A DNA stretch of 60,977 nt, the filler included, from Rhizaria sp. SCN 62-66 (Eukaryota): assembly GCA_001724265.1 (NCBI GenBank). It is 4 parts of 4 records of this genome, joined end to end, with 100 filler letters (N's around TTAATTAATTAA, not from the genome) between each part and the next. Parts side by side here need not be neighbours in the genome. Positions count along the whole stretch, not along the records: positions 15,133 to 30,400 come from MEDY01000499.1; 3 more parts are not named here. The stretch is one strand, 5' to 3'. Below, in pieces: positions 9,110-46,299 of this stretch. The number at the start of each line of letters is the position of its first letter. The first letter of the stretch is position 1. The translations under genes were made by a program, and so were the position numbers. The notes below the pieces were generated by a model that searched no databases, had not been told where the DNA came from, and saw nothing but the letters and a program-made list of their open reading frames with translations.

Positions 9110-10200
9110 AAGCTGCTGCTGCTGCCGCTGTTGTCCGTCTTTGTCAGTGTAACTGTTGCAGTTGCTGTTGGTGTGTTGCCGTTCTAGGCGTCACGTCGCA
9201 GCTGTGTTCTTGCTGCTGCCACGTTGTTGCTGTTGTTGTTTTTGTTGTTGCTGTTGCTGCTGCTGCTTTCGTACCTACGATGCTTTTCGTTTTTCGTTGA
9301 GTCACTCTCGTTACATCCCGCATTTTAGCGTTTGTGCTCGCTCTTTAGTGCGTGTCTGCTTGCTCGCTCTTTCTGTCTCTCTCGCTACTGTTCTTTTCTT
9401 TCACGTGTCGCACAGCTGCAGCAGCTGTCGTTGTTGTAAGTTCTGTGTGTGAGTTTGCTGTTTCTCACCGCTGCGATGATGAACGCGACCGCTAATCGCT
9501 CTCACACACACTCACACACCAAGCCTCTTTTGCGCGTCGACACGGACCCCCCTAGCGGCAGCAGCAGCGCGCTGGCACAGCGTCGCGAGCGCTTGCAGCG
9601 TCAATGTCATCTCTCTTTTCGGTTTATCACCGTTGTTCTGTGCTTTAATGTCCTCGGACTTGTAGTCGTGTATCGTTATCTTTGATTGTTGTTGCTGTTG
9701 TAGACAGTGTTATCGCCATGCGTGAGTCGACAGACCGTGTGGCCGCTGCCCCCGACACCGACAGTTGCGCACGATAACACACTGCACACGCAAACTAACA
9801 CACTGCACACGACAGCACACCGAGCTACGAAGACACTGTGACGACAGGACGACTCACATCACAACAAGCAACAAGCAACAAAGTATCAACAAACACGCAC
9901 ACACACACACACACAGGCACATGTACCATGCAGGCGAACACACACACTCTCTCTTGCGCTTTTTCGCTCTCTCTTGCTCTCTCCATCTTTCTTTTTGTTT
10001 TTTTACTTCGTTCAAAAACAGTTTGCGTTTCACACATGACATGATGAGACTCGCACTCTCTCTCTCTTCACCCCCCACACACCATATACCAATAACAATC
10101 ATCCTCATAATCATAATCACAGTCACACACCACTCACCTTTCATCTGCAACTGCTTTCACCCATCAATCGGCAACATAGAGTCGAGGAGGACGAATATAT
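9110..10200. repeat. Microsatellite-rich non-coding region ((TGC/TGT)n, (CA)n, (CT)n), probably the long 3' UTR of the RRM gene
   Basis: Simple repeats at about 9220-9265 and 9890-9950; no coding-type GC3 bias. Confidence 0.5.
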
Positions 10201-15032: not shown

Positions 15033-15132
15033 NNNNNNNNNNNNNNNNNNNNNNNNNNNNNNNNNNNNNNNNNNNNTTAATTAATTAANNNNNNNNNNNN
15101 NNNNNNNNNNNNNNNNNNNNNNNNNNNNNNNN
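15033..15132. other. Artificial contig-joining spacer (44 N + TTAATTAATTAA + 44 N)
   Basis: Exact 100-nt design with stops in all six frames; the flanking genes are truncated. Confidence 0.97.
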
Positions 15133-15183: not shown

Positions 15184-16087
15184 CCTAACGTCGCGTTCAA
15201 AGCGAGCCAGCTGCGGCGGTAGCTGCTCTGCCCGTGTCCGCAGCTCAGTGAGCACGCTGCCCAGCTAGCGGCCCGTGTGATCCTTGTGCTCGCCGAACAG
15301 GTATGCGCATTGCGCGCACGCAGTGGTGTTGCAGGTGTCGCACCAGTTGACGATCTTAATCGGGTGTTCGTGTCGGTGGCAGTACTGTGCGAGTATCAAA
15401 GGTCCAAAGCAGTTGGGAAAAGAACATAATTAGATGAGCGAAGATGATGAAAAGCGTAGTCAGTAATATAAATGCGTGGTTATCGACAGAGAGCATCGTA
15501 ACGAACGTGATGCAGTACTGATACAACTCTGGTATCCAGTTCAGTATCATTCATTTCATGAGTAATTGGTGTTCAAGAATCACTTGCACAGACCGCATTT
15601 GTCAGTGTCAAAGAATGGCGATAATTACGGACACGCAGCCTTAGGGAAACGTACGTTGGGGTTGTTCGGTAGGATGTGAGTGGCGATTGCGGTGCCTGCT
15701 GCTGCTGTTGTTGCTGTTGCTGCTGCTGCTGCTGCTGCTGCCGCTGCTGCTGCTGCTGCTGCTGCGACGGCGGCTGGAACAGTCGCATTGGAAGGCCCTG
15801 AGTGGAGACTCGCGAGCTGCTTCTATAACAACAGATACAAATAGTCGCACATTTCAGTAGTGGCAATTGTTAGTCACATATTGTACACATATGACTTGGC
15901 ATTGCGACGTCTTCCAGACTACAACTCGTAGCTCTTTTGTGTTGTGCGTGTTGTCCAAGAAACTCGGGTCAAATTTGTATGGACGTACCATCAAGCAATC
16001 CACGCAGATCTCCATGGCTGGGCCTCCAGGAGATGCAACGTGAGACGCGCGACATAACTTGCAAGGTGTGCCCATATCAGTTGACAT
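15184..16087 (-). CDS. B-box zinc-finger protein, copy A (exons 16087-15989, 15822-15655, 15384-15184; continues beyond contig end); in-frame TAG at 15265-15267
   Basis: Exon 1 has CKLC...CVDC. Exon 2 has a poly-Ala tract. Exon 3 reads YCHRHEHPIKIVNWCDTCNTTACAQCAYLFGEHKDH, a type-2 B-box. All three donors are GTACG and phase 0. Confidence 0.7.
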
Positions 16088-16508
16088 TGGGCTCTAGGAG
16101 TAGAAACAGTTTGAGATGCAGGAGAGAGCGTGGACGGTGGACGGATCGAAGTCGGTTCGGTAATTTGAGCCGTCGATTATTGGTTACACATCGGAATTAC
16201 CGGCACAAAAATACAAATAGTCTACTATTCAGCATAATGTCACAGGTAACCTGGCTATACATGTATTGACGATCAACTACGCAAAATATCGATGCTTCTA
16301 TGGTGATTAGGCCTTGTTGAAGCTGGACCGATAAAATAGTATGGCTGCCGCAGATTACGAGAAGACCACACCAATACACTTGTTCCAGTTTAGCTCTATG
16401 GTATCTTTATCAGGTTATGAGCCTTGTACGTTGCAAAAGTATTGGTGTGGTTTCAAGAGAGACGCGTTTCCTAAAAAACACGAAGCACTTCCTTCCACTG
16501 CGCAAAGC

Positions 16509-18881
16509 TCACTCTGAGGGCTGCAACAGCCGTTGTAGTGCATCCAGCCTCTGGTCCAGATCCTTCAGCCCCGCGCCATCCCCCGCACCGTTCGACTGCG
16601 CATTTGACTGAGGCTGCGACTGTGGGGTGGGTCGGCGGTGACGCTCAGTGGCCCTCATCACAGCCGACCCCGGGCCGCTGCCATTGCCGTGATGGACGCC
16701 GCTGCCGCCAGAGCGTGATGCGGGGGACGGTGAGCGGGTGCGCGCGCGGAGGGACGGAGACGAGCCTTGACTGCGCAGCTCAACGCTTCCGCCGGGCGCA
16801 AATGGACTGCGCGTAAGTATCAAAGCCGCACAAAGCAAAGCAGTGTGTTCAGAGCATATTTAAAGGAAAACAAAGAGTTAACGGTCGAGTAAGTGAGCCA
16901 GTGAGTGGACGCGACATATCATCACGAGTTGAGCTGAGCATCACATACAAGCACAATTGTATTTGTCTGTTTCTAACGATCATATCACACATCATCACAT
17001 GACGTACGCATTGTTGGCCTCAGACCCCCGCCTCGAGCCACTGCGGCTTCCAGGCCTCGACCCCTGCTGCTGTTGCTGTTGCTGCTGCTGTTGCTGGCGC
17101 TGCTGCTGGCGCTGCTGCACATATGCCACAGGATCAAACCGCGGGACTCCGCCGTGCCCCGGCCCGCGCGCCTGAGGCGACGGAGGCGCGCGGAAAGAGA
17201 AGCTCTCCCCCCGCCCCAGCGCGGGCGACGGCGACCGCGACACAGCGCTGCCACCCGCGCGCCCACTGCCCCCGTACACACCGGCAGCTGTGCTGGTCCG
17301 GGGCGCGGGCGCGGGGGACGCGGCGCGTGAGCCGGTGCGGGAGCCGGGGCGCGAGCTGTAGTTGTATCCGCCGCCGCCGCCGCCGGAGCCGCTGGCGCTG
17401 GGGACGGGAGTGCGCGAGCGTGACCGTGAGCGGCCCGCAGAGGCAAGATATGGCGACGGGGGACCGTTGTTGTGGTGGCCTGAGGAGCGCGACAGCGGGG
17501 GACCACGGCTCGGCGGGCGCCCAGAGCCAGAGCCAGCGCCAGAGCTCGACGTGGGCCCTTGAGAGGACGAAGTGTGTGTGTTATAGAGACGGCTGAACGC
17601 GTCACCAGCGCGACCGCGGCCGCTGCCACTACCATGCTCTGGCCGCGCGGGCCCCGGCGACGGCGACCGGCCTCGACTGTTCCTACCGGCCCCACCGCTG
17701 TGAAGGTTCGAGCTCGAGTCGTTGCTGCTGCCGGAAGGGCCGCGGAGCCTGATGCGTGCGAGCTCTTCGGTGAGCGTGCGGACGCGGTCGCGCGCCGCGG
17801 CCTCACCAGCGGCACGGCGGTCGAGCTCGTCCACAAGCGCGGCTTGGTCGCGCTGCAGCTGCGCGACTTCACGACGCAGCGCCACAGTCACGGAGGAGAG
17901 CTCGGCACGCAACGCGCCGGCTTCACCGCTGCTGCTCGTATTGCTGGCACTGCTGCTAGAGAGGTCAGATGTGGGAGCGAGGGCCTTGAGAGCAACAACC
18001 GCGTCCGCGGCGGCGGCCAGACGGAGCTTGAGGTCGCGGACCTCGGCTTCAAGCCGCGCGATCGTGGCCGCAGCGGACGTGCTCATGGCGCCCGATGCGG
18101 CGACGGTGCTGCTAGGCGCGTCAGCCGAGGCCGCTGTTGCGAGAGAGGCGGCGCGCACGGTCTGACGGAGCTTGCGGTTCTCTTCCTGGAAGCGCTTCAG
18201 GTCGCTCTGCAAACGGGCAACAGCGTCCGCGTCGGCCGACGGCTGCATCTGCGACTGCAGAGACTGGGACTGGGAGGGGCGGGCTGAGAGCGCGGCGGCG
18301 GCCGCGGTGGCTGTAGCAGCGGCGGCGGCGTCAGTGGCTGCAAGCAGCGCAGCGCGGAGCTGCGTGACGAGGCTCTTGAGCCGCGCGGGGTCGGGCGCAG
18401 CCTCGAACTTGAGTGGAAGCGGGTAGTGCACCTTATCGAACTCGACGATGTACGTCAGGATCACGTAGCGTTTGCTGTTGTTAGGGTGGGCAGGATTGGT
18501 CGCAACGGACGGTGCGGGGGGCAGCGCGGCTGCGGCGGCACCCGGCGGGGCGGACGCGGCGGCGGCCTTGCGCTGTTTCAGCAGCTCAAGGTCGGCGTAT
18601 GTGAGGATATCGATGAAAACGGACTCGGAAGCCTGAGAAAGCGCGGTTGAGAGCATTTTAACGAATGTGGGGAACTTCTTGATGTTTCCGGTCTTGTACG
18701 TCATCTCCTCAAGCGCGGCAGCGGAAAACTCTCCCAACCAGCGGTCAGCAGAGCCCAAATGCTAGACATGAACGTGCAGAGTGTCACCGGAGACGAAGGC
18801 ATGGATTTGGTACTGCACGCCCTGGAAACTCAGCTCCACAGTCTGGTCGTACGAGACCTGCGCGGACAGCAGCGCGGACAT
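16509..18881 (-). CDS. CCDC61: CCDC61/VFL3 centriole/basal-body protein (2 exons: 18881-17008, 16806-16509); in-frame TAG at codon 40 (18762-18764)
   Basis: The head domain is recognisable: FQGVQY...SGDTLHVHV*HLGSADRWLGEF..LEEMTYKTGNIKKF..F.KML..AL...SESVFIDILTYADLE...NSKRYVILTYIVEFDKVHYPLPL. It is followed by a coiled coil, an Arg/Ser-rich region and C-terminal LDQRLDALQ. Stop is TGA. Confidence 0.9.
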
Positions 18882-19851
18882 GGCCGAAGGGCAGGTAAGA
18901 CCGGTAAGGGCGGTCGCAGCAGATGCGGAAAGTGGAGTTGTGGGGGCCGAAGGGCGAGGCTGGGAGATGGGCGACAGAAGGAGGAGGAAGAGACCTGTTG
19001 GGTGACAGAAATGCAGTCGGGTGCAAGGTGAGATGCGAAATGCAAAACAAATAATTAAAAAATACCATACTTCCTCCCAAAGGCAGTTGAAAAACATCTT
19101 AATTTATTCAAATGACGAACAATGTACACCACGACAGAGGACTTTCACGAGGCTACTTTGGGGGCGTGTACAGCTAGCCGTTGGGAGGCGTTTGACTGGC
19201 AGCCAGCGTCGAGTCAGATTACAGAGCATTCGTGGCTGTGAACAACCGGCTTAACTTAGGGCGATGGCATCAGTCAGCAAGCAAACAGATGCTCGCAGCG
19301 GTCGCGTCTTTCCGTCAAACGGGAAACTAATTGCAATATGAAATGTATTTGCATTCAACTTTACTAATTCCTAAGTTAAATGTCTGACCGCATTCAGAAA
19401 CTCCTCTTTTCGTGTCCTCAACTGGAACACTGTACCAACGTGCATTGGTGGATGTGGTCGCTCCACAAATCTCGGCAGCTTTTGTTCTTAATCTCAACCT
19501 GTGACTCTATAGTTTTGATCTGATGCACTATACGATCCGTTATATTGAGAACCGCTGCTTTATCTCTTATATGCCACTGTTCTATGCTCATAGCCTCTGT
19601 CGCGTGCCATTTCTTCATTCGTAGAACTTTCTTTCGAACCCCTCACAAACACCTCTACAGACGCACCAAAACACCCCAGGCCTGCAATGCAGCAGGTGTT
19701 TTACTGAAGCAGGGTTTTATTCGCGCCCCCTTACACTCCCCGCGTTCTCATTAGTTCCTGTCAGAGCGCGCCACTGCGGCTCTCTTGCCACCGGTTTTTC
19801 GCCACCCCCTAATCACACCGCCTAAACTAACCTGAGACGACTCGTAGACGG

Positions 19852-22800
19852 ATGCCATCATCGTCGCAGCCGCCGTCGCAGCCGCCATCGCAGCCGCCTT
19901 GCGCGCTCCGCTCGGGCCCCGCAGACGCGGCGGCCGCGCTAGCGCTGCTGACCCAGCGCAGCCGTCGCCGCCGCCATCGCCCGCTGCTGCTGCGCTCGCT
20001 GCTTTCTGTGCTGCTGCTCGCGCTGTGCTACTGCGCTGCGCCGGCGACCGCTGACGTCACCGCTGTCACAGTCACTCCTGCTGCAATAGCCACAGGCGCA
20101 AGTGATGCTGATGACGCGGTCGCGCTGCTGTCCGCTTCACAGCAGCACAGCACAGTCAAATCAGCAGTCAAAACTTCGTCCACAACAGAGAATGACTACC
20201 CAGAGTCGTCGTCGACTACAGGCTCATCAAGCTCTGCTTCATCACTGTCTGCGGCGTTCAACACAGCGTCTATGTCCGTCTCTGCGCTGGTCTCGGCTGC
20301 GTCGCGTGTTCAGTCCGCCCGTGAGGCGCTGTTGCGGCTGTGGGCTCGGGCCACGGCCACGGCGGCGACCACGGTCACCACAATCACTGCGGTGCCCACA
20401 GTCGCTCCTGGCAACACAGTCACTGGCCAGGCCAGCACAAGTGACACTGTGGGCTCTATTGGGACCAGCGCTAGCGCCAGTGCCAGCGCGGGTGCGAGCG
20501 CGAGCGCGAGTGCCGCGAGTGTGAGGCCTGGGCTGCTGGGACTACTCACGGTCATTGTCGACGACGACTCTGCCAACACAGGCAGCAACAGCCGTGGCAG
20601 TGGCAACGGCAACGGCGACAGCAGTGCCAAGACTGACAGTGACACTGACGCCGCCTCGGCGGGGTCTGAGTCTGGACCCGAGGCTGAAACTGACGGTTTG
20701 CGTGGCTTGCGCGCTCTGTCAGCCTCCCTGCAGCGGCAGGGCCTTTCCCGGTCGGCCGCCGAAGGATTACTCTCGCGCACACTTGCACTCGCGGGCGCGG
20801 CGCTCGAGCCCAATGGTACGACACAACAACAGCAGCAACAACAAGACTCTAGCCGCACTCGCTCTCGTACTGGCTCTGAGTCGAACTCTGAGCCGAACTC
20901 TGACTCTAGTGCTGACTCTAGCGCTGACTCTGGCGCAGTAGTTGCGGTTGATGCTCAGGCCGCTCTGCTCTCTGCTCTATCCACTGCCGTTGCGGAAGCC
21001 CTAGCGGCCGCCGATGACTCGCTGCTGGTGCTGATTCATCGTGCGGCCTCCGCCTCCGCCGCTGCCGCCGCTGCAGACGCAGCCGCGTCCGCCGCGACAG
21101 ACGGGGCTGACGCTAGCGCCGTCGCAGTCTCACAACCCCAACAACAACAACAGCGCGGCTCTGCGGCTGCGGCCGCCACCGCGGCCGCCACCGCGGCCGC
21201 TGCTGCTGCGCGGGCCGGCGCGGCTGCGGCGGCGGCGGCTGCGGCCGGCGGGCAGAGGGGGGGCCCTCCTGGCGCTGGGACTGTCACGCTCGCCATTGGC
21301 GGCACCGAGACCGCCGGTGGAGCTGCGGCTGACGGCAGTGGCGACGCGATTGTCACCGTCAAAGCGACTGACAACACGCCCGCGGCTCGCATTCGCACTG
21401 GCACTGGCACTGGCACTGGTACTAATGCTAAGGCTGCTGAGACTGCGGCTGATGTCGCGGCTGAGGACGAAGATGAGGCCTACGACGACGACGATGATGA
21501 TGACGAGGACGAGGACGATTACGAAATCATTAACACTCGCTCACAGTCACACTTCAGCAGTACTCCGGCGGCAACACGTGGCAGTACACGTGGTGCTCAC
21601 AGTCGCGGTGGCCGTGCCCCGCCGTCCCGGCTGACGCGGAGACACCTCCGCACCTTGCGTTCTCTGCAGGCCGCACATCCACCCGTGATGACGCGTACCA
21701 ATGGTAACGGTTTGAGCACAACCACAGGTTCCCGCACAGGATCCCTCGCGAGTCCTCGCAAGTCTGATCTAACAATCACTGACCATGACGTTGACCATGA
21801 CCCTGATGTTGACACTGACATTGACACTGATGCTATGGCACTGGCGCTGGCTCCGGCGGCAACAGGCTCCCGTCCGAGCTCTAGCAGCGCCCGCGGCGGC
21901 AGTAACGGTCTCCCTCGCACCACCTACAGTCAAAGCAACGACAACAGTGACGGCGCAGCGGTGCCTGCAGCGGCAGCAGCTCTCGACGCCGGGCTGGTGA
22001 CCGAGTACTTGGACTGGGTAAGGGCCATGCAGTACGCGCAATACCTGCGCCTCGTTCCCCCGCCTCTGCGCGCGCTCCTGCCCGCGCCGGAGCCCCCCGC
22101 CGGCGGCGCCGCTGCGATCGCCGCCGCGGCCGCCGCGCTGGACGCTCCGGCCGCGTCGCACTCGCGCGCACTGGCGCTTGCGCAGGGCAGCGGCAGCGGC
22201 AGCGGCAGCGGCAGCGGCCACGATGTGTTGGCGACTGGGACTGGGACGGGCGCTGCTGCTGGGTGGCTGGGGCCCGGGGAAAACGGCGCCACGGCAGTCG
22301 CCGTGACTGTGCACGCTGGCTTCGGCTCCGGCTCTCACTTTGGCTCTAGCTCTATTGCTCACGGTCCCAGTCGCGGTCACGCTCACGGGCTGATTGACGG
22401 GGATGGTGATGGTGATGGTAACCCTGGTGGCAGCAACGGCGCCGGGCACGGAGACGACGACGATGATGACGACGAGGACGACGAGGACGACGAGGACGAC
22501 GGCGCAAACACCAACACCAACAAGAATCCGAACAACATCAACGACAACGACGATGCGCGCGGCACTTGCGATGCCAGCGCTGACGGCGACAACGACAACG
22601 ACACTGACCCCGACGACGACGACACCGACAGCACATCTTCCTCATCTCCGACCATCGCAGCAGCAGCAACAGCAACAGCAGCAGCCAGCTCCGTGACCGA
22701 AGGTGGCGACGTCGACGCCGACACGGGACTCGACTACCCTCCGTTGTCCCCCTTCGCACAGGCCCTGGCCCGCTTGCGCCCGCCTCCCGCGGCACGGCCC

Positions 22801-30400: not shown

Positions 30401-30500
30401 NNNNNNNNNNNNNNNNNNNNNNNNNNNNNNNNNNNNNNNNNNNNTTAATTAATTAANNNNNNNNNNNNNNNNNNNNNNNNNNNNNNNNNNNNNNNNNNNN
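30401..30500. other. Artificial contig-joining spacer
   Basis: 44 N + TTAATTAATTAA + 44 N. Confidence 0.97.
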
Positions 30501-32704: not shown

Positions 32705-35700
32705 TTAGCCGTCCATGAACGCCTCGATGTCGATGGTCGTCGCGTCCGGCAGCTCCTCCAGATCGTCGCTGCCGTTGCGGCCGCCCGCGCGGCTGCTGGA
32801 GCGCGCGCCGACCACGTCCGCGTTGCTCCCGCTCGTCGCACGCGCAGTGAACGTGTTGACGCGCGTCACGGCGCCGTACACGCTGTTGCTTCTGCCGCCG
32901 CTGCCGGCCGCGGTGGGGCTGCCGGCAGTGGCGCCCCGGGTGACCGCGCCCGACGCGCTGCCGGCGCCCGCGTTGTTGCTGTTGCTGTTGCTGTTGATGT
33001 TGCTGTAGCTGTTGTAGTTGTTCATGTTCGTCGAGGAGGTGATGACCGGGGAGCCCGAGGCTGTGGAAGGCGCAGTGCGCGCGAGCGTGGCCGCCGAGAC
33101 CGCGGCGGCGACGGCGTCGCTCGACAGCGGCACAGGGGCCACCGCGCCGCCCGCCGCCGAGAGCGCCGGCGACGGGACCACCGACGGCGCAGCAGCAGCT
33201 GCGGCGGCGGCGCCGGCGGCAGCGGAGGCCGGAGAGCCCGCGGCGGCGACGGCCCAGTCCGTGGCGACGACGCCGAGGCCCTTGACGGCGCGCGCGGCGG
33301 CGCGGGGCGCGTCGGTGGCGCAGAGCACGGCGCCCAGCGTCACGCGCGCGGTTGCGGGCTGACGGCGCAGCGCGCGCGCCCACCCGCACGCGGCCGACCC
33401 GGCGCAGCGCGCAGGAGCCGACGCAGAGGCGGAGACAGAGGCAGACGCAGAGGCTGAGGCTGAGGCTGAGCCGGCCACAGTGATTGCAGAGTCAGTACCA
33501 GTCGCAGTGGCGGCGGCGTCGGAGGCGGAGATAGCGGGGGTGATGACGAGCCAGTGTGTGACGCGCTTGGCCGCGGCGGGCGCGACGCCGGCGGGCCATG
33601 CAATGCCTCCGATCGCCGCGGCGGCGTCAATGCTCGAGTCGGCGCTGGCGCTGGCGCAGACGGGGTCGCCCGCGACCGCGGCGACGATGGCGGGCAGAGG
33701 GAGCCCGGCGACCATTGCGGCGGACTCGGCCTCGGCGCGCGCGAAGCCAGCGATGGCGGCGGCGACGGCGGCGTCGGCGTCGGTGTCCACGGCCACCACT
33801 AGCACGCCCCACACGGCGCGCGCGCACGCGGCTGCGGCCGCCGCGGCGGGGGCCGACACCGGCACGGGCATCAGTGCACGCTCGACCAGTGCGCGCGCGA
33901 CGGTGCGCAGCGCCGCGCGGGTCTGCGCCGCGCCGGCCTCCGCATCGGCCTCTGCCTTGGCGGCGCGCGCGGCCTCCGCGTCCTCCTCGTCTTCGTCCTC
34001 GTCTTCGTCCTCGTCGTTGTCTTCGTCGTCGGCGTTGTCCGCTGCAGCTGTGTCGCCGTCGTTGTGGTCGTCGCCGTCATCGTCGCTGTCGTCCTCCTCT
34101 TGCTCGAGCTCGGCCGGGCGAGGCGACTTAGCTTTCTGCTTGCGCGCCTTCTTGGCCGCCGCCGCAGCCGTCGCCGCGTGCTTGCGCGCCGCCCGCGCCG
34201 CGGGGACCGTGGGCAGCAGCGCGGGCGTGCCGCCGCCGGTGACGGTACGCGCGAGCGCGGGCGCCAGTGCCGCCCACGAACGAGGCCACTGCAGACTGAG
34301 CGGCAGGACCGAGCCCGCGAACAACGCGCTCGCGCCACCGCTGCCGCTGTTGTTGCTGTTGTTCGCGGCCGACTTCATCATCGTCATCGTCGTCATGACG
34401 CCGGCGCTAGAGGCGTTGCCGTAGCCAGCGGCAGTGCTGGCGTCCGCGGCCCCCGCGCCGGCGTCGCTGCCCGACGAAGTCATGTTGAGGCCGGCGCCGG
34501 CGCCGGCGCCGCTGTTTCTCCGCGCGGCCGCGTGGCTGAAGTAATAGCGCAGCCGCAGCGACGCGAGCGCGAGCAGCGCGGCGCGCAGAGCCGGCGAGCG
34601 GGGCGCCGAGGCCACGGCCACGGCCACGCGGCGCGGCAGCGGCACGGGCACCAGGGTGCCGGGGGTTGTCGTCGCGGCCGCGCCCACGCCCGCGGCCATA
34701 AGGCACCCGGGGCTGCCAGCGCCAGCGCCATAGCCAGAGCCAGAGATGGAGCCGGAGGAGGATCTGGAGACGGAGCCGGCGTTGATGCCGCCCGCGGTGG
34801 CGGTAGCGTTGGCGAACGAGAGCGCGATGGGCGAGAGCAGCAGCGCGAGAGCGGGCATGAGCACCGTCACAGTCGACTTGGCGTACAGAGGCTTGCGCGC
34901 GCGCGCGGCGGCCGCGGAAGCCGCGGCGGTGGCCGAGGTGGAGGCCGAGAGCGTGCGCGACGAGCCCGAGGCTGAGAGCACGACGGAGCGCGTGCGGGAC
35001 ACCGAGACCTCGCTCTCGCTCTCACCGTGCTGCGTCGCGATGCTCGTGCTGTCGTCGGCGGACGCCTCCGCGTCGTCGCCGTCAGCGCCGCCGTCGTGGT
35101 TGTTGTGGTTCGCCTCGTCGTCGTCGTCATCATAGTCGTCGTCGTCGTCGTCGTCGAACTGCTGGATCATGGCCGGCGGGTACCGGCCTGCGCCCGCCGC
35201 GGCTGCGGCCGCCACCGCTGCGGCCGCCGCGGCTGCGGCGAGGGCAGGGTGCTGCGGGGGGTCCAGCGCAAGCATCGCGGGCGCCGCGGCGGCGGCCGAG
35301 GCGGCAGCAGCGGCGGCAGCAGCAGCAGCGGCGGCCGAGGCAGCGGCGGCAGCGGCGGCGGCGGCGGCGGCCGAGGCCGAGGGGGGTGCGATCGCAGACG
35401 CCGCGGCGGCCGCGGCGACCGAGGGCGTGGCGATGCTCGCGCGCTTGAACTTCTGCTTGAGCGCGCCGGCGAGCCCGCCGAGCTTGGCCTTAAGCGTCGA
35501 GTGGCCCGTCAGCTGCGGCGACGCCGCGGCGGCTGCGGCTGCGGCCGCGGCATCGGCGTCGGCGGCCGCTGCGGCTGCGGCTGCGGCGGCCACGTCAGCG
35601 ATGGCGTCGGGGAAGGCCTGCGGGGAGAAGAGGTCCATCGCGGCGGCGGCAGCAGCGGCGCCCGCAGCGGCGGTGGCCACGGCGGCCGCAGAGGCCGAGT

Positions 35701-38700
35701 TGCCAGCGCCGCCGCCGCCGCTGTTGTTGATGTTCGTGTCGTAGACGGGGGGCGTGGCGCTGACGCCGCTGGTGTTGGAGCTGCTGCCGGCGTTAGTGGT
35801 GCTGCCGAGGTTGTTGCCCATAGTAGGGACATGGGGGATCATCACCGGGGCCAGGTTCGCGGGCGGCTGCACCCCGCTCGAGCTCGAGGTGTTGCTGCTG
35901 CTGTTGCCGAGCAGGACCGAGCCGAGCCAGCCGCGCTTCTTGACCGGGACGCCGGCCGCGATGGCGCACTCATCGCACTTGCTGACGTTGCCGCCCAGCC
36001 CGGTCCCGGGCCCGTGGCCCGCGCCGCCCAGCGCGAGGCCGGCCGCGGCGGCGAGCGCGTGCAGCGCCGCGAAGGGCGCGGCGGCGAGCGCGACCGAGGG
36101 GAATTGGTGCTCGATCAGCAGCATCGCCAGCGCCAGCGCGGGCCCGCCCGGCTGCACCGCCGGATCCAGGAGCGGCGCGGCGGCGCGGCTCAGCGCGGCG
36201 GGCGCGGCGTTGGCGCCGCCGTGACCCGAGCCCGCGACGCTGCCGTCGGCGCCCGCGCCAGACTCGGACGCAGCGCCGTCGTCGTTGCCGCTCGCGTTCG
36301 CAGCGGCGGCGGCGGCGGCGGCGTGGGACAGCGTGCCGCTGCTGGTGCCGGCGGGCGCGTTGGCGGGCGCGGCGGGCGCGTCGCCGTAGACGCAGATACG
36401 CAGCGCGCCCTTGGCGGGCGTGAGCGCGGCGATCATGTCCGCGCAGTCCATGGGCGACGAGAGGATCTGCGGCGGCACGTTCACGGCGCCCGGGAGCCGC
36501 GCCTGCGCAAAGCGCGCGGGCGCGCGGCAGTCGAGCAGCAGGTGGTGCGGGCGGCCGGGCGCGGCGACGGCGGCGGCGGCGCAGGCGGCGGCGACGGCGA
36601 CGGCGGGGGACACGGCGGGCGCGGCGGCGGGGTCGGGTGCGTTGTCGAGTGCGGCCGTCGTAGCGGCGCCGACACCCTGCGCGATGAGCTCGTCCGCAGA
36701 CAGGATCAGACAAGGCCGGTTGGCCAGCGTGGCCGCCACGGCGTCGGGCGAGTGCGCGTCGGCGCCGCTGCTCGCGGACCCGGCGCCGTTGCTGCCGCCG
36801 CCGTTGCCGCCGGTGCTGTTGCTGCACTGCGGCGCGGGGTAGGGCGGGTTGACGCCGAGCATGAGCGTGACGCGGTGCAGTGCCAGCAGCGCCGACACGG
36901 GCGTGACGGCCCGCAGCGAGCGCGCGCGCGACAGCGCCGCGTCGACTTGCGACGGCGAGCGGAACACGAGGCCCTTGGTCACGAGCTCCGGCAGCGACAC
37001 CTTGGGTTCCGAGAAAATGGCCTCGCGCGCCGAGATGAGGAGCGCGAGCGAGATGAAGATGTGGAACAGCGGGTCGTTGCTGAGCTCGAGGAAGATGGCG
37101 TCCCACAGCGCCGCGGTCGCGGGGATGGTCGCCAGGCTGAACGAGACGAAAAATCACAAAAAAGGTGATATATATCACAAGAGGAATGAGAGTTCATGAG
37201 ATCTTTTTAAGTAAATTATGAATTAGTCAAGTTGTCAAAAGTATTCGATTGTTTTAGTCCATGGTGCGCGAATTATACTTCGCAGCGCAATATATCCAAT
37301 CTAGAGACGTACCGCGCACGCGAGGCGTGAAGCGTGAGCACCCACGAGGACGCATACGCCTCGGGCCCCAGGTCCGAGTCGTCGAGGTGCGCCGCCAGCG
37401 TCGGGTCCAGGTACTGCAGCAGCAGCCGCAGCAGCGAGAGCGAGCACTGCAGCGGCGCGTAGTCGTCGCACGCGTACAGCGCGCAGACGGTGCGTGACAC
37501 GAGCGAGCGCAGCGTGAGCAGCATGGGCAGCGAGCAGGCCGTCAGGTGGGACGTCAGGCCGCGCAGCAGCAGCGCGGACTGCGGCGAGAACGGGGCCGCC
37601 GCCGCCGCCGCTGCTGCGACAGCGCCAGAGCCAGCGCCAGCGCCGGAGTCGGAGGACGCGGCAGGGACGACCGAAGTGTTGTGGCTGTGGCTGTTGTTGT
37701 AGTGGGCCGGCAGCGCGAGCCCAAAGGTGGGCCCGTAGCCGGTGAGCGCGGCGGCGTCGAGCGAGAGCACGGGGTCCACAAAGCAGCTCTTGGCGACGGG
37801 GACGCCGGCCGTGACCGTGGTCGTCAGAGTCATGTTGAGCGCGCCGAGCGCGCTGCCCGTGCCCGCCGCGGTGAGGAATGTGGCGCTGCTGCTGGTCGTC
37901 GTCGCGACCGTGCTGCTGCCGCCGACATCGCCGCCGGCAGCGTTGGTGCTCCGGCCATCGCTGCCGTTGTTGTTGTGGTTACCGCTGCTGCCGTCAGCGG
38001 CCGCGCCCTGGACGGGGCTGTGGCTGCGGCTGTGCACAGTCACCGTCGTCGTCGTCGTCGTCATCGTCGTCGTCGTCGCCGTCACGGTCACCTGATGTTG
38101 CGACTGCGACAGCGGCTGCAGGTGCTGCTTGTAGATGGCGGGAAACATGTACCCGCTGACGCCGACGCTGCCGAGGCCGCCGCTGCCTCCGCTGCCGGCC
38201 ACCGCCGCCGCCGAGGCCGCGGCCGCCGAGGCTGCCGTGAGCTCAGCCAGCGCCAGCGACATGAGTCCCTCGAGCGGGGACGGGGACGGGCTGGCGCCGA
38301 GACTGGCCGCAGTGCCGCTGCCGGTCAGTGAGGGCGCGCCGGGGCAAGGGTAGAGGCTCGAGGTGCCGAGGCTCTTGGCGACGCACGGCAAGTACGACAG
38401 CAGGATGGGCGCCAACAGGTAGTTTAGGCCCTGCTTGTAGGCCACTGCGCCCGCGACCGAGCCGCAACCAGCACTGGCGCTGGCGCTAGCAGTGGGGGAG
38501 ATGCACCCGTTCTTAGCGGTCCCCGAGCTGCTGCTGTTGCTGCTGCTGCTGGTGTTGTGTGGGTAGGCAAGGACGCAGAAGCGGAGGAGCGCGAGCTGGA
38601 TCTGGTGCAGCAGCGGCGGGAAGGCGAAGAAGGGCGCGAACGGCAGCGTGCGCGGCGCGTCGGCGGCGACGGTGCGCAAGTTCGCGCGGTCACACGGCCG

Positions 38701-41700
38701 CATCGGCTCGGGCTCCACGAGCTCCAGGGGCTCCAGGGCCGCAGGGGACGCACTCGCAGGCACTGTTGCAGGCGCAGGCACAACAGCCGCACTGCCGGGG
38801 TTGTCGCTCTTGGCGGCAGCGGCAGCGTCGCCACTGGGGTCCGAGGGCGAGGAAGTGAGCTGTGACAGCGATAGAGAGGGGGCGGGGGCCGAGGCCGAGG
38901 AATAGGACGCCGGCGGCGACAGCGTCAGCGACTGCGTTGTCGACTGAGACTGTGTCGACTGTGAGGCCTGCGACTGCGAGGCGGGCAGCGAGATCACCGC
39001 GCCAGCATCCACACTCGTGTTGGCGCCGTTTGAACTCGCACCAGAGCCAGAAGCAGAGCCAGAGCCGGAGCCGGAGCCGGAGTTGGAGGTCGAGTGCAGC
39101 GCGAGCGCCGCGGCGGCCGCGGCCGAGGCGGCGGCCTGCTTGCGGTGCTCCCACAGCAGCGTCAGTAGCGACAACAGCGGCGCCGGCGGCCGGCGGCTGC
39201 CCTGGCCCAGTCCGCCGCCGCCGCCGCCACTGCCGCCGCTGCGGCCGCCGGAGCCGGGACGCGAGCCGGAGCCGGAGCGGGCGCTGTGGCGGCTGCGGGC
39301 GCCGCTGCGGGCGCTGCTGAGGTCGGTGCCGACCGAGTCCGCGTCGTAGTCGTCGTCGTCGTCGCCGTCGTCGTGACCGGCGCCGGTGTCGTTGTCGGCG
39401 TTGTCATCGAAGTCGACGTCAAAGTCGCTGCCGGCGGTGTCGTCCCCGTTCGCGTTGCCGCTGCCGCTGCCACCGTTGCTGTTGCTGTTGCTATTGCTGT
39501 TGCCGCTGTTGGCGCCGTTGCGCGAGCTGCCGGCGCGCCGCGTGCGGCTGTGGCGGCCGCCGCGGCCACCGCGGCCCACCGCCACGTTGCTGTAGTGGTT
39601 GCGGCCCGAGTTGTCGGCATTGTCGCCATCGCCGTGGCCGCCCAGCAGCGCCTCGGCCAGCCCCGCGGCCGCCGTGGAGTCGTCGTGCGCGCCGTGGCCA
39701 TGGTCGTGGCCGTGGCCGCTGACGTTATGGGCGCGGTCCCCGTCGTGCTCGGCGTCCACGTCGTGGTCGGTGAAGCTGTTGCTGTTGCTGCGGGGCGCGT
39801 TTCTGCCGTTGCCGCTGAGCGCGCCGGCCTTGCTGCTGTTGTTGTGAAGCGAGGACGGTGACAGCAGCGCTTCGTGGTCGTGGCTCAGACTGACGTCGAG
39901 CGCGCCGACGCTGAGGCCGACGCCGCTCACGCCTGCGGCGGCGCCCGCAGTAGCGCTCGTGCCGCCGCTGCCATTACCGCTGCTGCCGTGGGCGCCGTTG
40001 CGGGAGCGAGTCCGGCTCTGGCTGCGGCTGCGGCTCCGGCTGCGGCTCTTACGGCGCGCCGACGACGCCTGTTGCTGCTGCTGGTTGTTGTTACCGCTGT
40101 ACTGCAGCGACTGGGACGGGGACGCGAGCGAGGGCACCGACGAGAGCAGGTCGCTGAGTCCGCTGGCGTGCCCGAAGCCCAGTTGCGGCACCGCGCCGTG
40201 CCGCGGCGAGTCCAGCGCTGCCGCCGCCGCCGCTGAGGATGGGGTGGCGAGGTGTGACTGTGAGCCCGAGCCGAAGCCCGAGCGGCGGCGCCGGTGGTGC
40301 TCACGCCCGCTCCGCCCCCCGTGGCCGTGACCGTTGCCGTCTCTGGTGTCGCGGCCCGTGCTGTCGTAGTCGTTGGAGCGCGCGGTCGAGTCCCAGTTGA
40401 CCGTCGGGGTCATGCCCAGATTGTTGCTGCCGCTGCTGGGACCGTGGGCCGAGGCCGAGTCGAGCAGGCTGCTGACGGGCACCTCGTCGCCTTGATGTGG
40501 CTGCCCACGGTCGCCTCCCAGCATCAGCCCCGCGCCGGTGGCCGGCCCGCGGGCCCTGGCGGGGCCGGCGCCGCTGTGATGCCGACGCGCGCGGCCCCTC
40601 TGGCTCGCCGTGCTCGTCGTGTTGTTGCTGTTGCTGGGAGCGCCGTTGCTACTGTTGCTATGCCGGGGGCGGGGGCGCGGGCGCGGGCGCGGGCGCGCGA
40701 AGGCGCGGCGGAGTGCGGCCGAAGCGGTGTAGAGGGCGAAGCCCCACCACACGTCGTCGTCAAAGCCGCACGCGCACGCGCACTGACACCCGAAGCCGCT
40801 CACCGCTGCAGCAGCAGTACTGGCGGCCGAGGTGTTTGCACCTGAGCTCGTATGCGCGCTGCCGAGGTTGGTCGGCGAGGGAGCGGGGGAGACGTTGGGG
40901 GAGCTGGACGCCGAGCGGGCGTTGTTGGCGTGGTTGCTGTTGTTGCAGAGACATGGGCACGCGCACACCGCCTCGGCCCATAGCAGCGAGGCGGGGGCGG
41001 CGCCGGCCAGCGCGCCCCACACGGCGCCGCGGAGGCGCGCGGGCACGCCGTGCGAGGAGCAGAGGCGGACCACGGTCGACTGCGACTGCAGCTGCCGCGG
41101 CGGCAGCGGCAGCAGGCGCACGCGGCGCGGCCCGCGCGCGCTGCCGGCGTGAGAGGACGCGTTTGCATTAGTATTCGCGCCGTCGGGCTCGGCGCTGCTG
41201 TTGGTCGCCGTGAGCAAGTTGTTGTTGCTGCTGTTGTTGTTGTCAGAGCAAGCGCTGGGGCCGGCGGGGCAGGGGCGGAACGAAGGCGGCAGCAGCCACG
41301 CCAGCGGGCCGGAGACGGCGTCGGCGGTGAAGCCCCCGGCACCTACACTGACACTCGCACTAGAGTTGGCGCTGGAGCTGGCCGCAGTGGCGCTGGCGCT
41401 CACGTTGTTGCTCGGCCCCACCGGGACCAAGGCGGTGCTCAGGTTGCAGCTGTTGCTGCTGCTGTCGGTCAGTGGGTTGGAACTGGCGCTGACGCGGGCG
41501 CGGGCGCGGGCGACGACGCGCGCGACGGCGGCGGCGGCGGCGGGCGTGGCAGGAATGGGCAGCGCGTCGCCGAGCAGCAGGAACGAGGCTGTGAGCCCGG
41601 TCAGCGTGATCGTGGGCACCGCCGCGGGCACCGTGGGTGCGGGCAGGGTGACCGTGGGCAGCGCAGCACCGTGCGCGGCAGCGGTGAAGCCCGCGTCGTG

Positions 41701-42882
41701 GGCTGCATCATCGTTGTTGTTGTCGCCGTCAAGCGACGACGTCGCCTGTTGCTTCGCGCCCGATTGACCGTTGCCGTTGCTGATGTTGATAGCGCTAGTG
41801 CCGACCGCCCACGTCCTGGCCTCGGCGACGGCGGCGGCAGCGTCCGGCGTGGCGAACAGCTCGTGCACCAGCGAAAGCTCGATGGACCAGGGCGCGTCGC
41901 AGGAAAGCCACGCCATGCGCGGGGCAGCGGTCGCCGCGGCCACGGCGGCGGCCACGGCGGCCGCGCTGTGGCTGCGCGCGGCGAGGTCGGCGCTGGCGCC
42001 GGTGCTGTCTCCATAGGTGAAGCCGGAGCCTGAGGCCGAGGCGGACAGCGGGCTGGTGGCTGTGAAGGCGCTGGTGTTGACCGCAGCAGCCGCAGCAGAA
42101 TTGCCGCTGTTGTTGTTATTGCTAGTGCCAGGGGTGGGGACGGGCGAGCTGACGACCGCGGGCGAGGTGAAGTGCTCCAGCGAGAGCGTGTGCGGCGCCA
42201 GACCAGTGTAGTCAGTCCCCGCCGCGCTCGCACTGGTCGTTGCAGTCCCACTGGCAGCGGCTCTCGCAGTGGCGGCGGTGGGGGTGGGGATCTGTCCGAC
42301 GAGAACACCGTTCGCGCTGATCCCAGAGGCGGAAGCCACCGCGTTCGCCGCCGCAGAGGCCGGGACATGGAGTGTCTGCAACTGCGACTGACTGGACGCG
42401 GACGTGTACGACGACGCGAGCGTGGAGGCGTCCTCGGCGCCCGCCGCCGCCGCGGCCGCGTTGGCCGTCGCCGCAGCGGCCTCGGTGTCGACCTTCTTGG
42501 CCAGCGCGACGAGCTCGAGCCAGGCGGCCGAGGTGGCGTCGAAGATGATCCCGTCGGGGCGCGCCGCGACGGCCGCGCGTAGCAGCCGCTCGCGATAGTC
42601 GGGCAGCGTTGTGGCGCGCGACGCGCAGCGGGCCGCGATCTGCGGGTATGTGAACCGCTTCAGCGCCGAGGCGGGGATTAGTGCGAGGGCCTCGGGGGAC
42701 AGAGGGCGGATCGGGCCGCTGGGGGTGTCCTGGAACTAAGGCACCGCGGCCGAGGCGGCGCCCGCGGCGGCGGCTGAGGTCGGCAGCGACGCTGACATGG
42801 GCGCAGAAGCTGATGTTGTGGTAGCTGTCGCTGCAGCCTGAGCTGAGTTCGGCGTTCGCGGACGCGAGGGCGGGCGCGACAT
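32705..42882 (-). CDS. TBC (Rab-GAP) + rhodanese-domain protein, TBC1D23-like, about 3333 aa (2 exons: 42882-37313, 37136-32705); in-frame TAG at codon 49 (42736-42738)
   Basis: TBC motifs: GVPARLRGAVW, VAADAPRTLP, YKQGLNYLLAP, LLLQYLDPTLAAHL...YASSWVLTL and ALWDAIF..DPLFHIFISLALLISARE. Rhodanese motif: LLLDCRAPARFAQARLPGAVNV. One GTACG..CAG phase-2 intron; stop is TAA. The frame continues about 500 nt upstream of the ORF-track start, through a TAG, to ATG 42882. Confidence 0.8.
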
Positions 42883-45415: not shown

Positions 45416-45515
45416 NNNNNNNNNNNNNNNNNNNNNNNNNNNNNNNNNNNNNNNNNNNNTTAATTAATTAANNNNNNNNNNNNNNNNNNNNNNNNNNNNN
45501 NNNNNNNNNNNNNNN
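45416..45515. other. Artificial contig-joining spacer
   Basis: 44 N + TTAATTAATTAA + 44 N. Confidence 0.97.
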
Positions 45516-45516
45516 C

Positions 45517-46299
45517 ATCGCCACCGACGGCGTCTTCAGCATGGACGGCCACATCGCCGACCTCCGCTCCATCTGCGACCTCGCCGACCGCTACAACGCG
45601 CTTGTGTTTGTCGACGACGCCCACTCCACTGGCTTCGTCGGCAAGACCGGCCGCGGCACTGCCGAGCACTGCGGTGTACAGGTACGCTCACTTTCAGCAG
45701 AAATATATCGATCTTACATGAAATCATGCTATTTTACAACATTTATATCACATATTTACGAAGTATTTACTTTGTAAAACGCGTGTATATTGTAGCTTTC
45801 GAACGTATTCACCGACTTCTGCTATGTTTTGTCCCTTTTACGCAATCGCAGGACCGTGTCGACATTATCAACTCGACCCTCGGCAAGGCGATGGGTGGCG
45901 CGTCCGGCGGCTACACTACGGGCCCCAAGGAGGTTGTCGACATTCTCCGCAACAAGGCGCGCCCTTACCTCTTCTCCAACTCGATCGCGCCCCCGCTGGT
46001 GGCGGCGGCGCAGCAGGCCTTCGACCTCGTCTCGCGCGATACCACTTTGCGTGACAAGGTCGAGGCCAACACCACGCTCTTCCGCAAGCTCATGAGCGAG
46101 AACGGCTTCAACGTGCCCGGCGAGCACCCGATCGTGCCGGTGATGCTGGGTGACGCGAAGCTGGCGGGCGAGTTCGCGCGCGAGATGGTCAAGGAGGGCA
46201 TCTACGTCGTCGCCTTCTCCTACCCCGTCGTGCCCATGGGCAAGGCGCGCCGCTTGCGCCAAGGCATTCGCCGTTGTTAAGAAGCGCCTTAACGCGTAA
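45517..46299 (+). CDS. GCAT: Glycine C-acetyltransferase (2-amino-3-ketobutyrate CoA ligase), 5'-truncated (exons <45517-45681, 45852-46299), with apparent deletion/frameshift at about 46250
   Basis: [27 protein letters not shown], the PLP-lysine motif [33 protein letters not shown] and [12 protein letters not shown]. Confidence 0.9.

What the first reader, a model, noticed from the sequence alone, without database searches (positions are those of the whole stretch)
18700..18881. In-frame TAG inside the conserved CCDC61 head domain (strongest single case)
The ORF track splits this gene at 18762. The upstream piece (FQGVQYQIHAFVSGDTLHVHV) and the downstream piece (HLGSADRWLGEF...KTGN) are in the same frame. 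They align without gaps to my recollection of human CCDC61 (FRGVEHAVRVMVSGQVLELEV-E-DRMTADQWRGEF), with TAG occupying exactly one residue opposite Glu. No intron fits here, and the rest of the gene, including its splice sites and C-terminal motif, is intact. The polar aligned residue favours Gln or Glu for UAG.
Basis: partly seen in the sequence, partly recalled or inferred. Interest (0 to 1): 0.8.

Follow-up and report, generated by a model that had tools for sequence, protein, structure and literature searches.

The report
Real in-frame TAG in CCDC61 gene
An uncultured wastewater protist carries a genuine TAG "stop" codon at a conserved glutamate position of an otherwise intact basal-body gene, and a second one in a neighbouring contig's gene, which suggests but does not prove that it reads TAG as an amino acid.

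Summary
On the minus strand, a two-exon CCDC61/VFL3 gene (18881..17008 and 16806..16509, 723 codons, TGA stop) has one internal stop, TAG at 18764..18762 (codon 40). The head domain matches solved CCDC61 heads (E 2e-34) without a gap across the TAG. The column is Glu in 21 of 24 homologues.

The TAG is not an assembly error. Contigs of other sequencing runs, including a diverged strain sampled ten years later, carry it, and no intact allele turned up. No intron fits.

A second in-frame TAG (42738..42736) lies in a 3333-codon TBC/rhodanese gene. It sits between the only upstream start codons and an N-terminal block shared with homologues. No comparable in-frame TAA or TGA exists. None of 10 confident gene ends uses TAG (9 TAA, 1 TGA).

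Best reading (about 0.55): this organism translates UAG, probably as Glu or Gln, but uses it very rarely (2 in roughly 14,000 codons).

Rivals are a fixed nonsense allele, gene-specific readthrough, and downstream initiation.

No tRNA, eRF1, peptide or RNA evidence across the site was available.

The window is four contigs joined by spacers, so "same organism" is inferred.

The parts
18762..18764 (-). In-frame TAG, codon 40 of CCDC61, at a column that is Glu in 21 of 24 homologues
   Evidence: Present in contigs of runs X2/X3 and X4.
17008..18881 (-). CCDC61 exon 1 (ATG at 18881): head domain (about residues 1-170), Ala-rich coiled-coil-like middle, low-complexity Ser/Gly/Arg-rich tail
   Evidence: A poly(A) RNA-library contig of run X5 covers 17435-17806.
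16807..17007 (-). Intron, 201 nt, AT-rich, GTACGT...CAG
   Evidence: the frame closes only with this junction. Strain X4 has an ACA insertion and 2 substitutions here.
16509..16806 (-). CCDC61 exon 2 with the conserved C-terminal motif (DLDQRLDALQRLL) and the TGA stop at 16511..16509
42736..42738 (-). Second in-frame TAG, codon 49 of a TBC/RabGAP-rhodanese gene. It lies between Met1/Met29 and the conserved N-terminal block (residues about 72-125). The next Met is codon 323.
   Evidence: Not checked in other runs.
37313..42882 (-). TBC/rhodanese gene exon A (ATG 42882; alternative ATG 42798)
37137..37312 (-). Intron of the TBC gene, 176 nt, GTACGT...CAG
   Evidence: The junction restores the TBC domain as in P0038/P0039.
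32705..37136 (-). TBC/rhodanese gene exon B, ending in TAA

Best explanation
The TAG at 18764..18762 is a real, population-stable codon inside a functional CCDC61/VFL3 gene of an uncultured, GC-rich, intron-bearing protist. Its closest named CCDC61 is from the cercozoan Mataza. The most likely mechanism is that this organism's ribosomes insert an amino acid at UAG instead of terminating, or much more often than terminating. That would give a full-length protein with an intact head domain. By conservation the residue is most likely Glu, one anticodon change away from tRNA-Glu(CUC). By precedent it could be Gln. The same decoding would let the TBC/rhodanese gene on the neighbouring contig be translated from its ATG through its own TAG at codon 49. 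UAG is used very rarely as a sense codon here (2 in roughly 14,000 codons). That fits either a young, codon-capture-like reassignment or inefficient suppression that selection keeps rare. Shown: the TAG is real; both genes are otherwise intact; both TAGs lie where translation is needed; no intron can remove them. Inferred: that UAG is decoded at all, by which tRNA, with which residue, and that the two contigs belong to one organism.
For: (1) CCDC61 homology is ungapped across the TAG, E 1.9e-34. The column is E in 21 of 24 homologues that cover it, with S, T and N once each.
(2) The CDS of 723 codons has no other lesion, a spliced conserved C-terminal motif and the head-dimer Phe-Asp pair.
(3) The TAG is reproduced in Logan contigs of X2/X3 (0 differences in 1235 nt) and of X4, a 2025 run of another study (5 differences in 1361 nt, none at the TAG). 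The 39-residue N-terminal ORF occurs on 2 contigs. No spanning allele was found.
(4) Between strains, exon 2 differs at 6 sites, 5 synonymous and 1 not. P for at least 5 of 6 is 0.0075 under random change.
(5) No intron fits. All 7 of 7 homology-supported introns start with GTACG and end in CAG. The only minus-strand GTACG near the TAG (18852) would give a 91-nt, frame-breaking excision of conserved residues (my reading).
(6) There is a second in-frame TAG in a 3333-codon CDS whose only other stop is its end. Mets are at codons 1, 29 and 323, and the TAG is at 49. The conserved block shared with P0038/P0039 lies at residues 72-125. No minus-strand GTACG lies between 37477 and 43504.
(7) Controls with 25 stop-free codons on both sides: both flanks are coding-like at 4 of 123 TAG sites, 1 of 82 TAA sites and 2 of 340 TGA sites. 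Only the two TAGs above lie in real genes.
(8) 0 of 10 confident gene ends use TAG (9 TAA, 1 TGA).
Against: UAG is extremely rare as a sense codon, about 2 in 14,000 codons (sum). By contrast, the rhizarian exLh has 384 in 71 genes (PMC5304391, passages), and ciliate-like CCDC61 loci L004/L005 have 9 in-frame stops in about 150 aligned residues.

Only one site is informative about the residue. GAG to TAG is a single-step nonsense mutation at a Glu codon, so the pattern is also what a null allele looks like.

Because TAA so dominates gene ends (9 of 10), the absence of TAG there has little weight.

No tRNA gene of any kind is in the window. eRF1 is not in the window.

The second TAG was not checked in other runs and could be bypassed by a non-AUG start.

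The two genes lie on different contigs that were joined artificially.

A third gene, the KBL fragment, has an unexplained truncated 3' end, so broken genes or local assembly faults may exist in these contigs.

The RNA-library contig covers only 17435-17806 and does not prove transcription.
Confidence: 0.55

Rival explanations
1. Fixed nonsense allele (young pseudogene or dispensable gene). A GAG-to-TAG transversion knocked out CCDC61 in a lineage that thrives in bioreactors without needing properly positioned basal bodies. The gene has not yet accumulated further lesions. The TAG in the TBC gene is an unrelated feature, such as the end of an upstream ORF.
For: The TAG is one substitution from the Glu codon expected at this column. 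In-frame TAGs are far too rare for an established sense codon. A neighbouring conserved gene (KBL) also looks damaged at its 3' end.
Against: The allele is the only one seen in three samplings spanning about ten years and in two haplotypes. There is no other lesion in 723 codons, and the splice sites and C-terminal motif are kept. Strain differences in exon 2 are 5 synonymous to 1 non-synonymous. A second gene with a TAG between its start codons and a conserved block would need a separate excuse.
Confidence: 0.22
2. Gene-specific leaky termination under a standard code. UAG is a normal stop in this organism, but at these two sites a near-cognate tRNA reads it often enough to give useful amounts of full-length protein.
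For: Rarity of in-frame TAG fits site-specific recoding better than a code change. The base after the CCDC61 TAG is C. By my recollection, which no call tested, that is a weak termination context.
Against: The six bases after the CCDC61 TAG (CAUUUG) match the recalled CARYYA readthrough motif at only 4 of 6 positions, and the TBC site (UUCCAG) does not match. There is no unusually stable structure downstream of either TAG (z 0.60 and -1.44 against 200 shuffles). A basal-body scaffold made only by readthrough at codon 40 would be an odd design.
Confidence: 0.13
3. Termination at TAG, with the functional products made from downstream starts: Met59 in CCDC61, and a non-AUG codon or Met323 in the TBC gene.
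For: In-frame ATG codons exist downstream. Coiled-coil and C-terminal parts of human CCDC61 bind microtubules on their own (PMC7267773, passages).
Against: The solved head domain includes the residues before the TAG (alignment starts at query residue 15), so a Met59 product would lack its first strands. The 39 codons before the TAG are still clearly homologous to P0001, with 80% identity over the head region. The TBC conserved block lies before Met323.
Confidence: 0.05
4. Assembly or sequencing error at 18762-18764.
For: The window is a low-coverage metagenome assembly (word depths of about 5-7).
Against: The same three bases stand in independently built contigs of X2/X3 and of X4, a different study and year with a diverged haplotype.
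Confidence: 0.02

Closest known systems
CCDC61 / VFL3 (XRCC4-superfamily paralogue of SAS6; PDB 6HXT, 6HXV, 6HXY)
   Same: N-terminal head domain (E 1.9e-34). The Phe-Asp pair of the head-to-head dimer interface is present (EFD in the alignment; its role is taken from PMC7267773, passages). The order is head, coiled-coil-like region, then low-complexity tail. The C-terminal motif is shared with 9 protist homologues.
   Different: Codon 40 is TAG. There are long Ala/Ser/Gly-rich inserts. The closest relative is only 80% identical in the head (P0001, a metagenome protein), and the closest named one is 54% (Mataza sp. D1).
UAG-only stop-to-sense nuclear codes: rhizarian exLh (UAG=Leu) and Iotanema spirale (UAG=Gln) (PMC5304391, passages read); phyllopharyngean ciliates (UAG=Leu or Gln, UAA the preferred stop) (PMC11687900, abstract read)
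   Same: Only UAG appears in frame. UAA dominates and UGA is the minor terminator (here 9 TAA and 1 TGA of 10; exLh has 56 UAA and 15 UGA). The lineage is possibly rhizarian, like exLh.
   Different: Usage is lower by orders of magnitude (2 sites in about 14,000 codons, against 384 in 71 genes). The one informative column points to Glu, not Leu or Gln. No tRNA or eRF1 evidence is available here.
Codes with UAG=Glu: Oligohymenophorea sp. PL0344 (UAA=Lys, UAG=Glu; PMC10553269, abstract read) and Blastocrithidia nonstop (UAR=Glu, UGA=Trp; PMC12153298, start of abstract in the search listing)
   Same: UAG standing at a Glu position.
   Different: In those organisms UAA is reassigned as well. Here TAA is the main terminator. 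The organism is neither a ciliate nor a trypanosomatid: it has GC-rich genes and GTACG introns.
Programmed UAG readthrough (the tobamovirus CARYYA context and retroviral UAG-plus-pseudoknot are my recollection, from no call)
   Same: A single in-frame UAG early in an otherwise open frame.
   Different: The context matches at 4 of 6 positions at best, and there is no downstream structure.

Membership tests
CCDC61/VFL3 | N-terminal XRCC4/SAS6-like head domain homologous to solved CCDC61 heads | tested here: met
   6hxy E 1.9e-34, 6hxt 2.2e-34, 6hxv 5.3e-32, covering residues 15-169. All 14 near-length homologues carry the precomputed label PF27933. My Pfam scan found no CCDC61 family. I take the local copy to lack that model.
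CCDC61/VFL3 | Conserved Phe-Asp of the head-to-head dimer interface (human F128/D129 per PMC7267773) | tested here: met
   The alignment pairs query ...vefdkvhyplpl with human ...vefdrihyplpl. The role of these residues is taken from passages of PMC7267773.
CCDC61/VFL3 | Coiled-coil after the head domain | not tested
   No coiled-coil predictor was run. The only hint is a weak Leu_zip hit (E 0.0078, below cut-off) and heptad-like sequence seen by eye.
CCDC61/VFL3 | Conserved C-terminal motif at the very end of the protein | tested here: met
   exon 2 ends with a D-x-R-L-x-A-L-Q-x-x-L motif that aligns with the C-termini of 9 of 9 homologues compared.
CCDC61/VFL3 | Uninterrupted reading frame | tested here: not met
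   One TAG at codon 40. This is the finding itself.
Nuclear UAG stop-to-sense reassignment | Many in-frame UAGs in conserved genes, concentrated at columns of one amino acid | tested here: inconclusive
   Two in-frame TAGs in two genes. One is at a Glu column (21 of 24). The other lies in a low-complexity stretch. That is too few to infer a code.
Nuclear UAG stop-to-sense reassignment | UAG absent from genuine gene ends | tested here: inconclusive
   0 of 10 confident ends use TAG (9 TAA, 1 TGA). Five further ends were set aside as uncertain: three TGA ends at 2066, 53560 and 56096, and two TAA ends at 46278 and 45319. With TAA this dominant, the absence is weak evidence.
Nuclear UAG stop-to-sense reassignment | Cognate tRNA with anticodon CUA | not testable with these tools
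   ARAGORN finds 0 tRNA genes in the window. No whole genome is held.
Nuclear UAG stop-to-sense reassignment | Altered eRF1 stop-codon recognition region | not testable with these tools
   eRF1 is not in the window, and no genome is held.
Programmed stop-codon readthrough | Stimulatory 3' context or downstream RNA structure | tested here: not met
   The recalled CARYYA motif matches at 4 of 6 positions at the CCDC61 site. Folding 120 nt from each TAG gives z 0.60 and -1.44.

The most novel reading that the evidence does not exclude
An uncultured, GC-rich, probably cercozoan protist of activated sludge is at an early, codon-capture-like stage of reassigning UAG alone to glutamate. UAG has vanished from gene ends, where UAA and UGA terminate, and is only beginning to reappear at Glu positions by GAG-to-UAG changes. 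A nuclear code with UAG=Glu and UAA/UGA=stop was not among the variants I saw in the papers consulted. An incipient stage of a stop-codon reassignment has rarely been caught.
Probability: 0.2. Interest if true: 0.85.

Novelty: new member of a known kind. Interest (0 to 1): 0.6.

Why it matters
If UAG is decoded here, this would add a non-ciliate and possibly rhizarian lineage to the few eukaryotes that split the meaning of UAG from UAA. Sense-UAG usage is so low that it could show what the first steps of a stop-codon reassignment look like. In practical terms, gene callers cut both proteins at the TAG: the 39-residue N-terminal piece is filed as a separate protein. Eukaryotic bins from wastewater may therefore hide such cases. 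If it is instead a fixed nonsense allele, it is an ordinary young pseudogene of a basal-body gene.

Tried and rejected
- **Whole genome:** none is held for this window.
- **Close relatives' DNA:** two scans of metagenome contigs returned no close relative. The first found nothing. The second gave 7 loci at 30-57% identity. Neither P0001's contig nor the window itself was in that collection, so no dN/dS against the 80% relative was possible.
- **Earlier scan notes:** none exist for this genome or its look-alikes. The word search gave two unrelated cases.
- **GC3-based screen for read-through ORFs:** dominated by antisense frames and uninformative.
- **Strict codon-score screen, 40-codon flanks:** the tight thresholds found nothing. 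In the ranking, only the CCDC61 TAG had both flanks score positively, in absolute terms and relative to the other five frames. The TBC TAG ranked sixth.
- **Two other TAG sites with coding-like flanks:** dismissed. 3450-3452 looks like the 3' end of an intron whose GTACG donor is at 3278 (my reading). 9184-9186 lies in low-complexity intergenic sequence.
- **An intron across the CCDC61 TAG:** a 12-nt GT..AG span and the 91-nt span from GTACG 18852 were both rejected. They are too short or frame-breaking, and they would remove aligned residues.
- **An intron ending at the TBC TAG from the only upstream GTACG (43504):** rejected. The in-phase frame before that donor has a TGA five codons upstream with no ATG between them (reading).
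- **RNA structure after the TAGs:** none beyond shuffles.
- **tRNA search:** 0 genes.
- **Not3 search for taxonomy:** returned only the window's own protein and one distant hit, because of the length limits.
- **Rab-like GTPase:** my recollection that it is RABL2, a ciliary protein, was not confirmed. PDB and Atlas searches gave only generic Rab/Ran hits, so I do not use it as evidence for a flagellate lifestyle.
- **KBL 3' end:** neither alternative frame matched anything.
- **Exact look-up of the 48-residue ORF before the TBC TAG:** not in the collection. This says nothing either way.
- **RNA run X5:** gave no cover at the TAG or the intron.
- **Rosculus vilicus:** the rhizarian amoeba genome is 37.7% GC (PMC10770858, passages), so it is not this organism.
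- **Literature:** searches for Cercozoa + UAG + sense codon found 0 papers. The search listed only known cases.
Full report
**What the window is.**
The 60,977 bases are not one molecule. Three spacers of 44 N, TTAATTAATTAA and 44 N stand at 15033-15132, 30401-30500 and 45416-45515. The window is therefore four contigs of about 15 kb joined end to end. Run look-up places the DNA in bioreactor and wastewater metagenomes.

All four pieces share three features:
- GC-rich coding sequence, with third-position GC of about 0.8.
- AT-rich introns of 110-250 nt.
- One codon-usage model fits genes on every piece.

I treat the pieces as one organism, but that is an inference. The finding lies on piece 2.

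**The observation.**
On the minus strand, ATG 18881 opens a frame that runs 39 codons, meets TAG at 18764..18762, and continues in the same frame. Residues 1-170, with the TAG read as X, hit the three solved CCDC61 head domains at E 1.9e-34 to 5.3e-32. There is no gap from residue 15 to 116, so the TAG fills exactly one column.

I aligned 33 homologues from two searches. Of these, 24 cover the column: 21 have Glu, and Ser, Thr and Asn occur once each. The nearest relative, P0001 (80% identical in the head, from a metagenome), has Glu. The human chain has Glu and the zebrafish chain has Ser.

**Gene model.**
The 588-codon ORF after the TAG runs into stops at 16997. All seven introns that homology lets me place in this window begin with GTACG and end in CAG. 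Applying that rule gives four parts:

| Part | Coordinates |
|---|---|
| Exon 1 | 18881..17008 |
| Intron | 17007..16807 |
| Exon 2 | 16806..16509 |
| TGA stop | 16511..16509 |

The joined CDS is 2172 nt, with stops only at codon 40 and at the end. My first guess at the donor, made, was wrong and is replaced by this one.

Exon 2 ends with the motif that closes 9 of 9 protist homologues compared. The Phe-Asp pair that Ochi et al. describe as the core of the head-to-head dimer is present. The gene is CCDC61/VFL3 and, apart from codon 40, it is whole.

**Is the TAG real?**
I laid Logan contigs of four other runs on 15200-19900.
- X2 and X3 give identical figures throughout and are probably one data set. 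Their 1235-nt contig covers 18223-19457 with 0 differences.
- X4 is a 2025 run of another study. Its 1361-nt contig covers 18461-19821 with 5 differences, all listed (18886, 19187, 19356, 19405, 19419). None is at the TAG.
- No contig with another letter at 18762-18764 appeared in any run, although depths are low (about 5-7).

In the 5.8-billion-protein collection, the 39-residue N-terminal ORF exists as its own entry on 2 contigs. No near-identical protein spans the site. Assembly error is excluded, and an intact allele was not seen.

**Is it removable or avoidable?**
No GTACG donor lies where an intron could take out the TAG. The nearest, at 18852, would excise 91 nt, break the frame and delete aligned residues. 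The alignment itself leaves no room for an intron.

Starting at the next Met (codon 59) would delete strands that are part of the solved head domain.

**Is the gene under constraint?**
Between the window and the X4 strain, exon 2 differs at six sites. Five are synonymous and one changes Ser to Thr near the end. Random changes in that exon would be synonymous 28% of the time, which gives P = 0.0075 for at least five of six. One further difference in exon 1 (17558) changes Gly to Arg in a low-complexity part.

Three caveats apply:
- Other X4 differences were not listed.
- The exon-2 contig and the TAG contig of X4 are separate records.
- In a sexual population such variants could predate the TAG.

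A contig from a poly(A) RNA library (X5) covers 17435-17806. This is compatible with transcription but does not prove it.

**A second case.**
On piece 3, a minus-strand gene with a RabGAP-TBC and a rhodanese-like domain can be modelled as 42882..37313 plus 37136..32705. That is 3333 codons ending in TAA. Its only internal stop is TAG at 42738..42736, codon 49.

In-frame Mets stand at codons 1, 29 and 323. An exhaustive HMMER search found two homologues, P0038 and P0039 (E 1.4e-05 and 1.9e-05). Their N-termini align to window residues 72-125 (LKRFT..QIA...P.Y..LL...DG..FD...W), and their own Met starts lie 36-48 residues before that block.

In the window that block can be reached from an ATG only by passing the TAG. 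No GTACG lies on this strand between 37477 and 43504. The frame in phase with the 43504 donor has a TGA and no ATG just upstream.

Several confident starts here share the ATG-TCN pattern of both upstream ATGs, which is soft support. A non-AUG start after the TAG cannot be excluded, and I could not check this TAG in other runs.

**Controls and rarity.**
I asked for 25 stop-free codons and coding-like scores on both sides of each stop triplet.

| Stop | Sites passing | Sites examined |
|---|---|---|
| TAG | 4 | 123 |
| TAA | 1 | 82 |
| TGA | 2 | 340 |

Two of the four TAG sites are the cases above. One is an intron end and one is low-complexity intergenic sequence. The TAA and TGA sites lie in antisense or intergenic sequence. 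In-frame stops inside real genes are therefore TAG only.

They are also very few: about 2 in 14,000 coding-like codons (sum). The four longest ORFs, 8183 codons together, have none, which is by construction but still limits the frequency. True reassigned codes look different. The ciliate-like CCDC61 loci L004/L005 show 9 in-frame stops in about 150 aligned residues. The rhizarian exLh has 384 UAGs in 71 genes (PMC5304391, passages read).

**Terminators.**
Of 10 gene ends I trust, 9 are TAA, 1 is TGA and none is TAG. Five more ends were set aside because a GTACG donor or an odd model makes them uncertain. Three of those are TGA and two are TAA. With TAA this dominant, the lack of TAG is only a hint. 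The same UAA-over-UGA pattern is reported for exLh and for phyllopharyngean ciliates that reassigned UAG (PMC5304391 passages; PMC11687900 abstract).

**Mechanism.**
The data fit best with UAG being translated in this organism.
- Shown: the codon is real and stable. Both genes are otherwise intact. Both TAGs lie where translation must pass.
- Inferred: decoding by a tRNA with anticodon CUA, and the residue.

Glu is favoured by the one informative column and needs a single anticodon change from tRNA-Glu(CUC). Gln is the commonest outcome elsewhere and would be a mild change at this surface strand. The window itself has His where its relative has Glu two residues earlier.

I found no readthrough signal. 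The context matches a recalled motif at 4 of 6 positions, and folding gives z 0.60 and -1.44. No tRNA gene is in the window.

**Why I stay at about 0.55.**
- A Glu codon turned into TAG by one substitution is also the signature of a plain nonsense mutation.
- The usage is far below any described reassignment.
- The second site has an escape route through a non-AUG start.
- The two sites sit on contigs whose common origin is inferred.
- A third conserved gene, a 2-amino-3-ketobutyrate CoA ligase fragment at 45516-46277, loses homology at residue 369 of 400 and stops eight codons later, with no frame restoring the end. Damaged genes or local assembly faults may therefore occur here.

**Comparison and novelty.**
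The gene is an ordinary member of CCDC61/VFL3.

The decoding question belongs with the UAG-only reassignments: exLh (Leu), Iotanema (Gln) and phyllopharyngeans (Leu or Gln). It also relates to the UAG=Glu codes of Oligohymenophorea sp. PL0344 and Blastocrithidia, where UAA changed as well (abstracts read; for Blastocrithidia only the listing). The closest named CCDC61 is from the cercozoan Mataza sp. D1 at 54%, so the host may be a rhizarian. I did not place it by phylogeny.

Searches for Cercozoa + UAG + sense codon (0 papers) and for protist metagenome code changes showed no report of such a case. Supplementary files were not consulted.

Noticed in passing
window 15033-15132, 30401-30500, 45416-45515: Three spacers of 44 N + TTAATTAATTAA + 44 N. 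The window is four contigs of about 15 kb joined artificially. Genes at the joins are cut: a ribosomal-protein-like ORF ends at 15032 and 45415, and the KBL gene starts at 45516.
   Followed up: yes
window: donors at 17007(-), 37312(-), 44010(+), 45682(+), 60002(+), 7917(+), 8408(+): A very strict 5' splice site. 7 of 7 homology-placed introns begin with GTACG(T/C) and end in CAG. They are AT-rich and 110-250 nt long. GTACG is not rare by chance (48 and 38 per strand), so it is a rule for introns rather than a marker on its own.
   Followed up: partly
window 45516-46310 (+): A 2-amino-3-ketobutyrate CoA ligase gene (E 4.4e-47 to PDB 7v58) is cut at the contig start. Its 3' end is odd: homology stops at residue 369 of 400, the frame ends eight codons later at TAA 46278, and no other frame or downstream ORF supplies the missing end.
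   Followed up: partly
window 43598-44885 (+): A Rab-like small GTPase whose first coding exon seems to be only ATG plus 7 bases (43598-43607). It is followed by a GTACGT intron that ends in TAG at about 43856. The main exon has no in-frame ATG. It resembles RABL2 by my recollection only; PDB and Atlas searches gave generic Rab/Ran hits.
   Followed up: partly
window gene ends 8913, 14083, 14840, 27808, 31982, 32705, 44886, 46529, 56957 (TAA) and 16509 (TGA): TAA ends 9 of 10 confidently placed genes although third codon positions are about 80% G+C.
   Followed up: partly
L004 4-460 and L005 475-931: CCDC61 loci from other metagenome contigs carry 9 in-frame stops within about 150 aligned residues, as expected of ciliates with reassigned stops. 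They served as a contrast for what a well-used reassigned codon looks like.
   Followed up: no
window 19852-27810 (+): A single 2659-codon ORF encodes a protein kinase whose catalytic domain is split into three stretches by long acidic, Ala/Ser-rich and poly-Gln inserts.
   Followed up: no
runs X2 and X3: The two runs give identical contigs, depths and differences although they are filed under different studies and years. They are probably one data set and were counted once.
   Followed up: no
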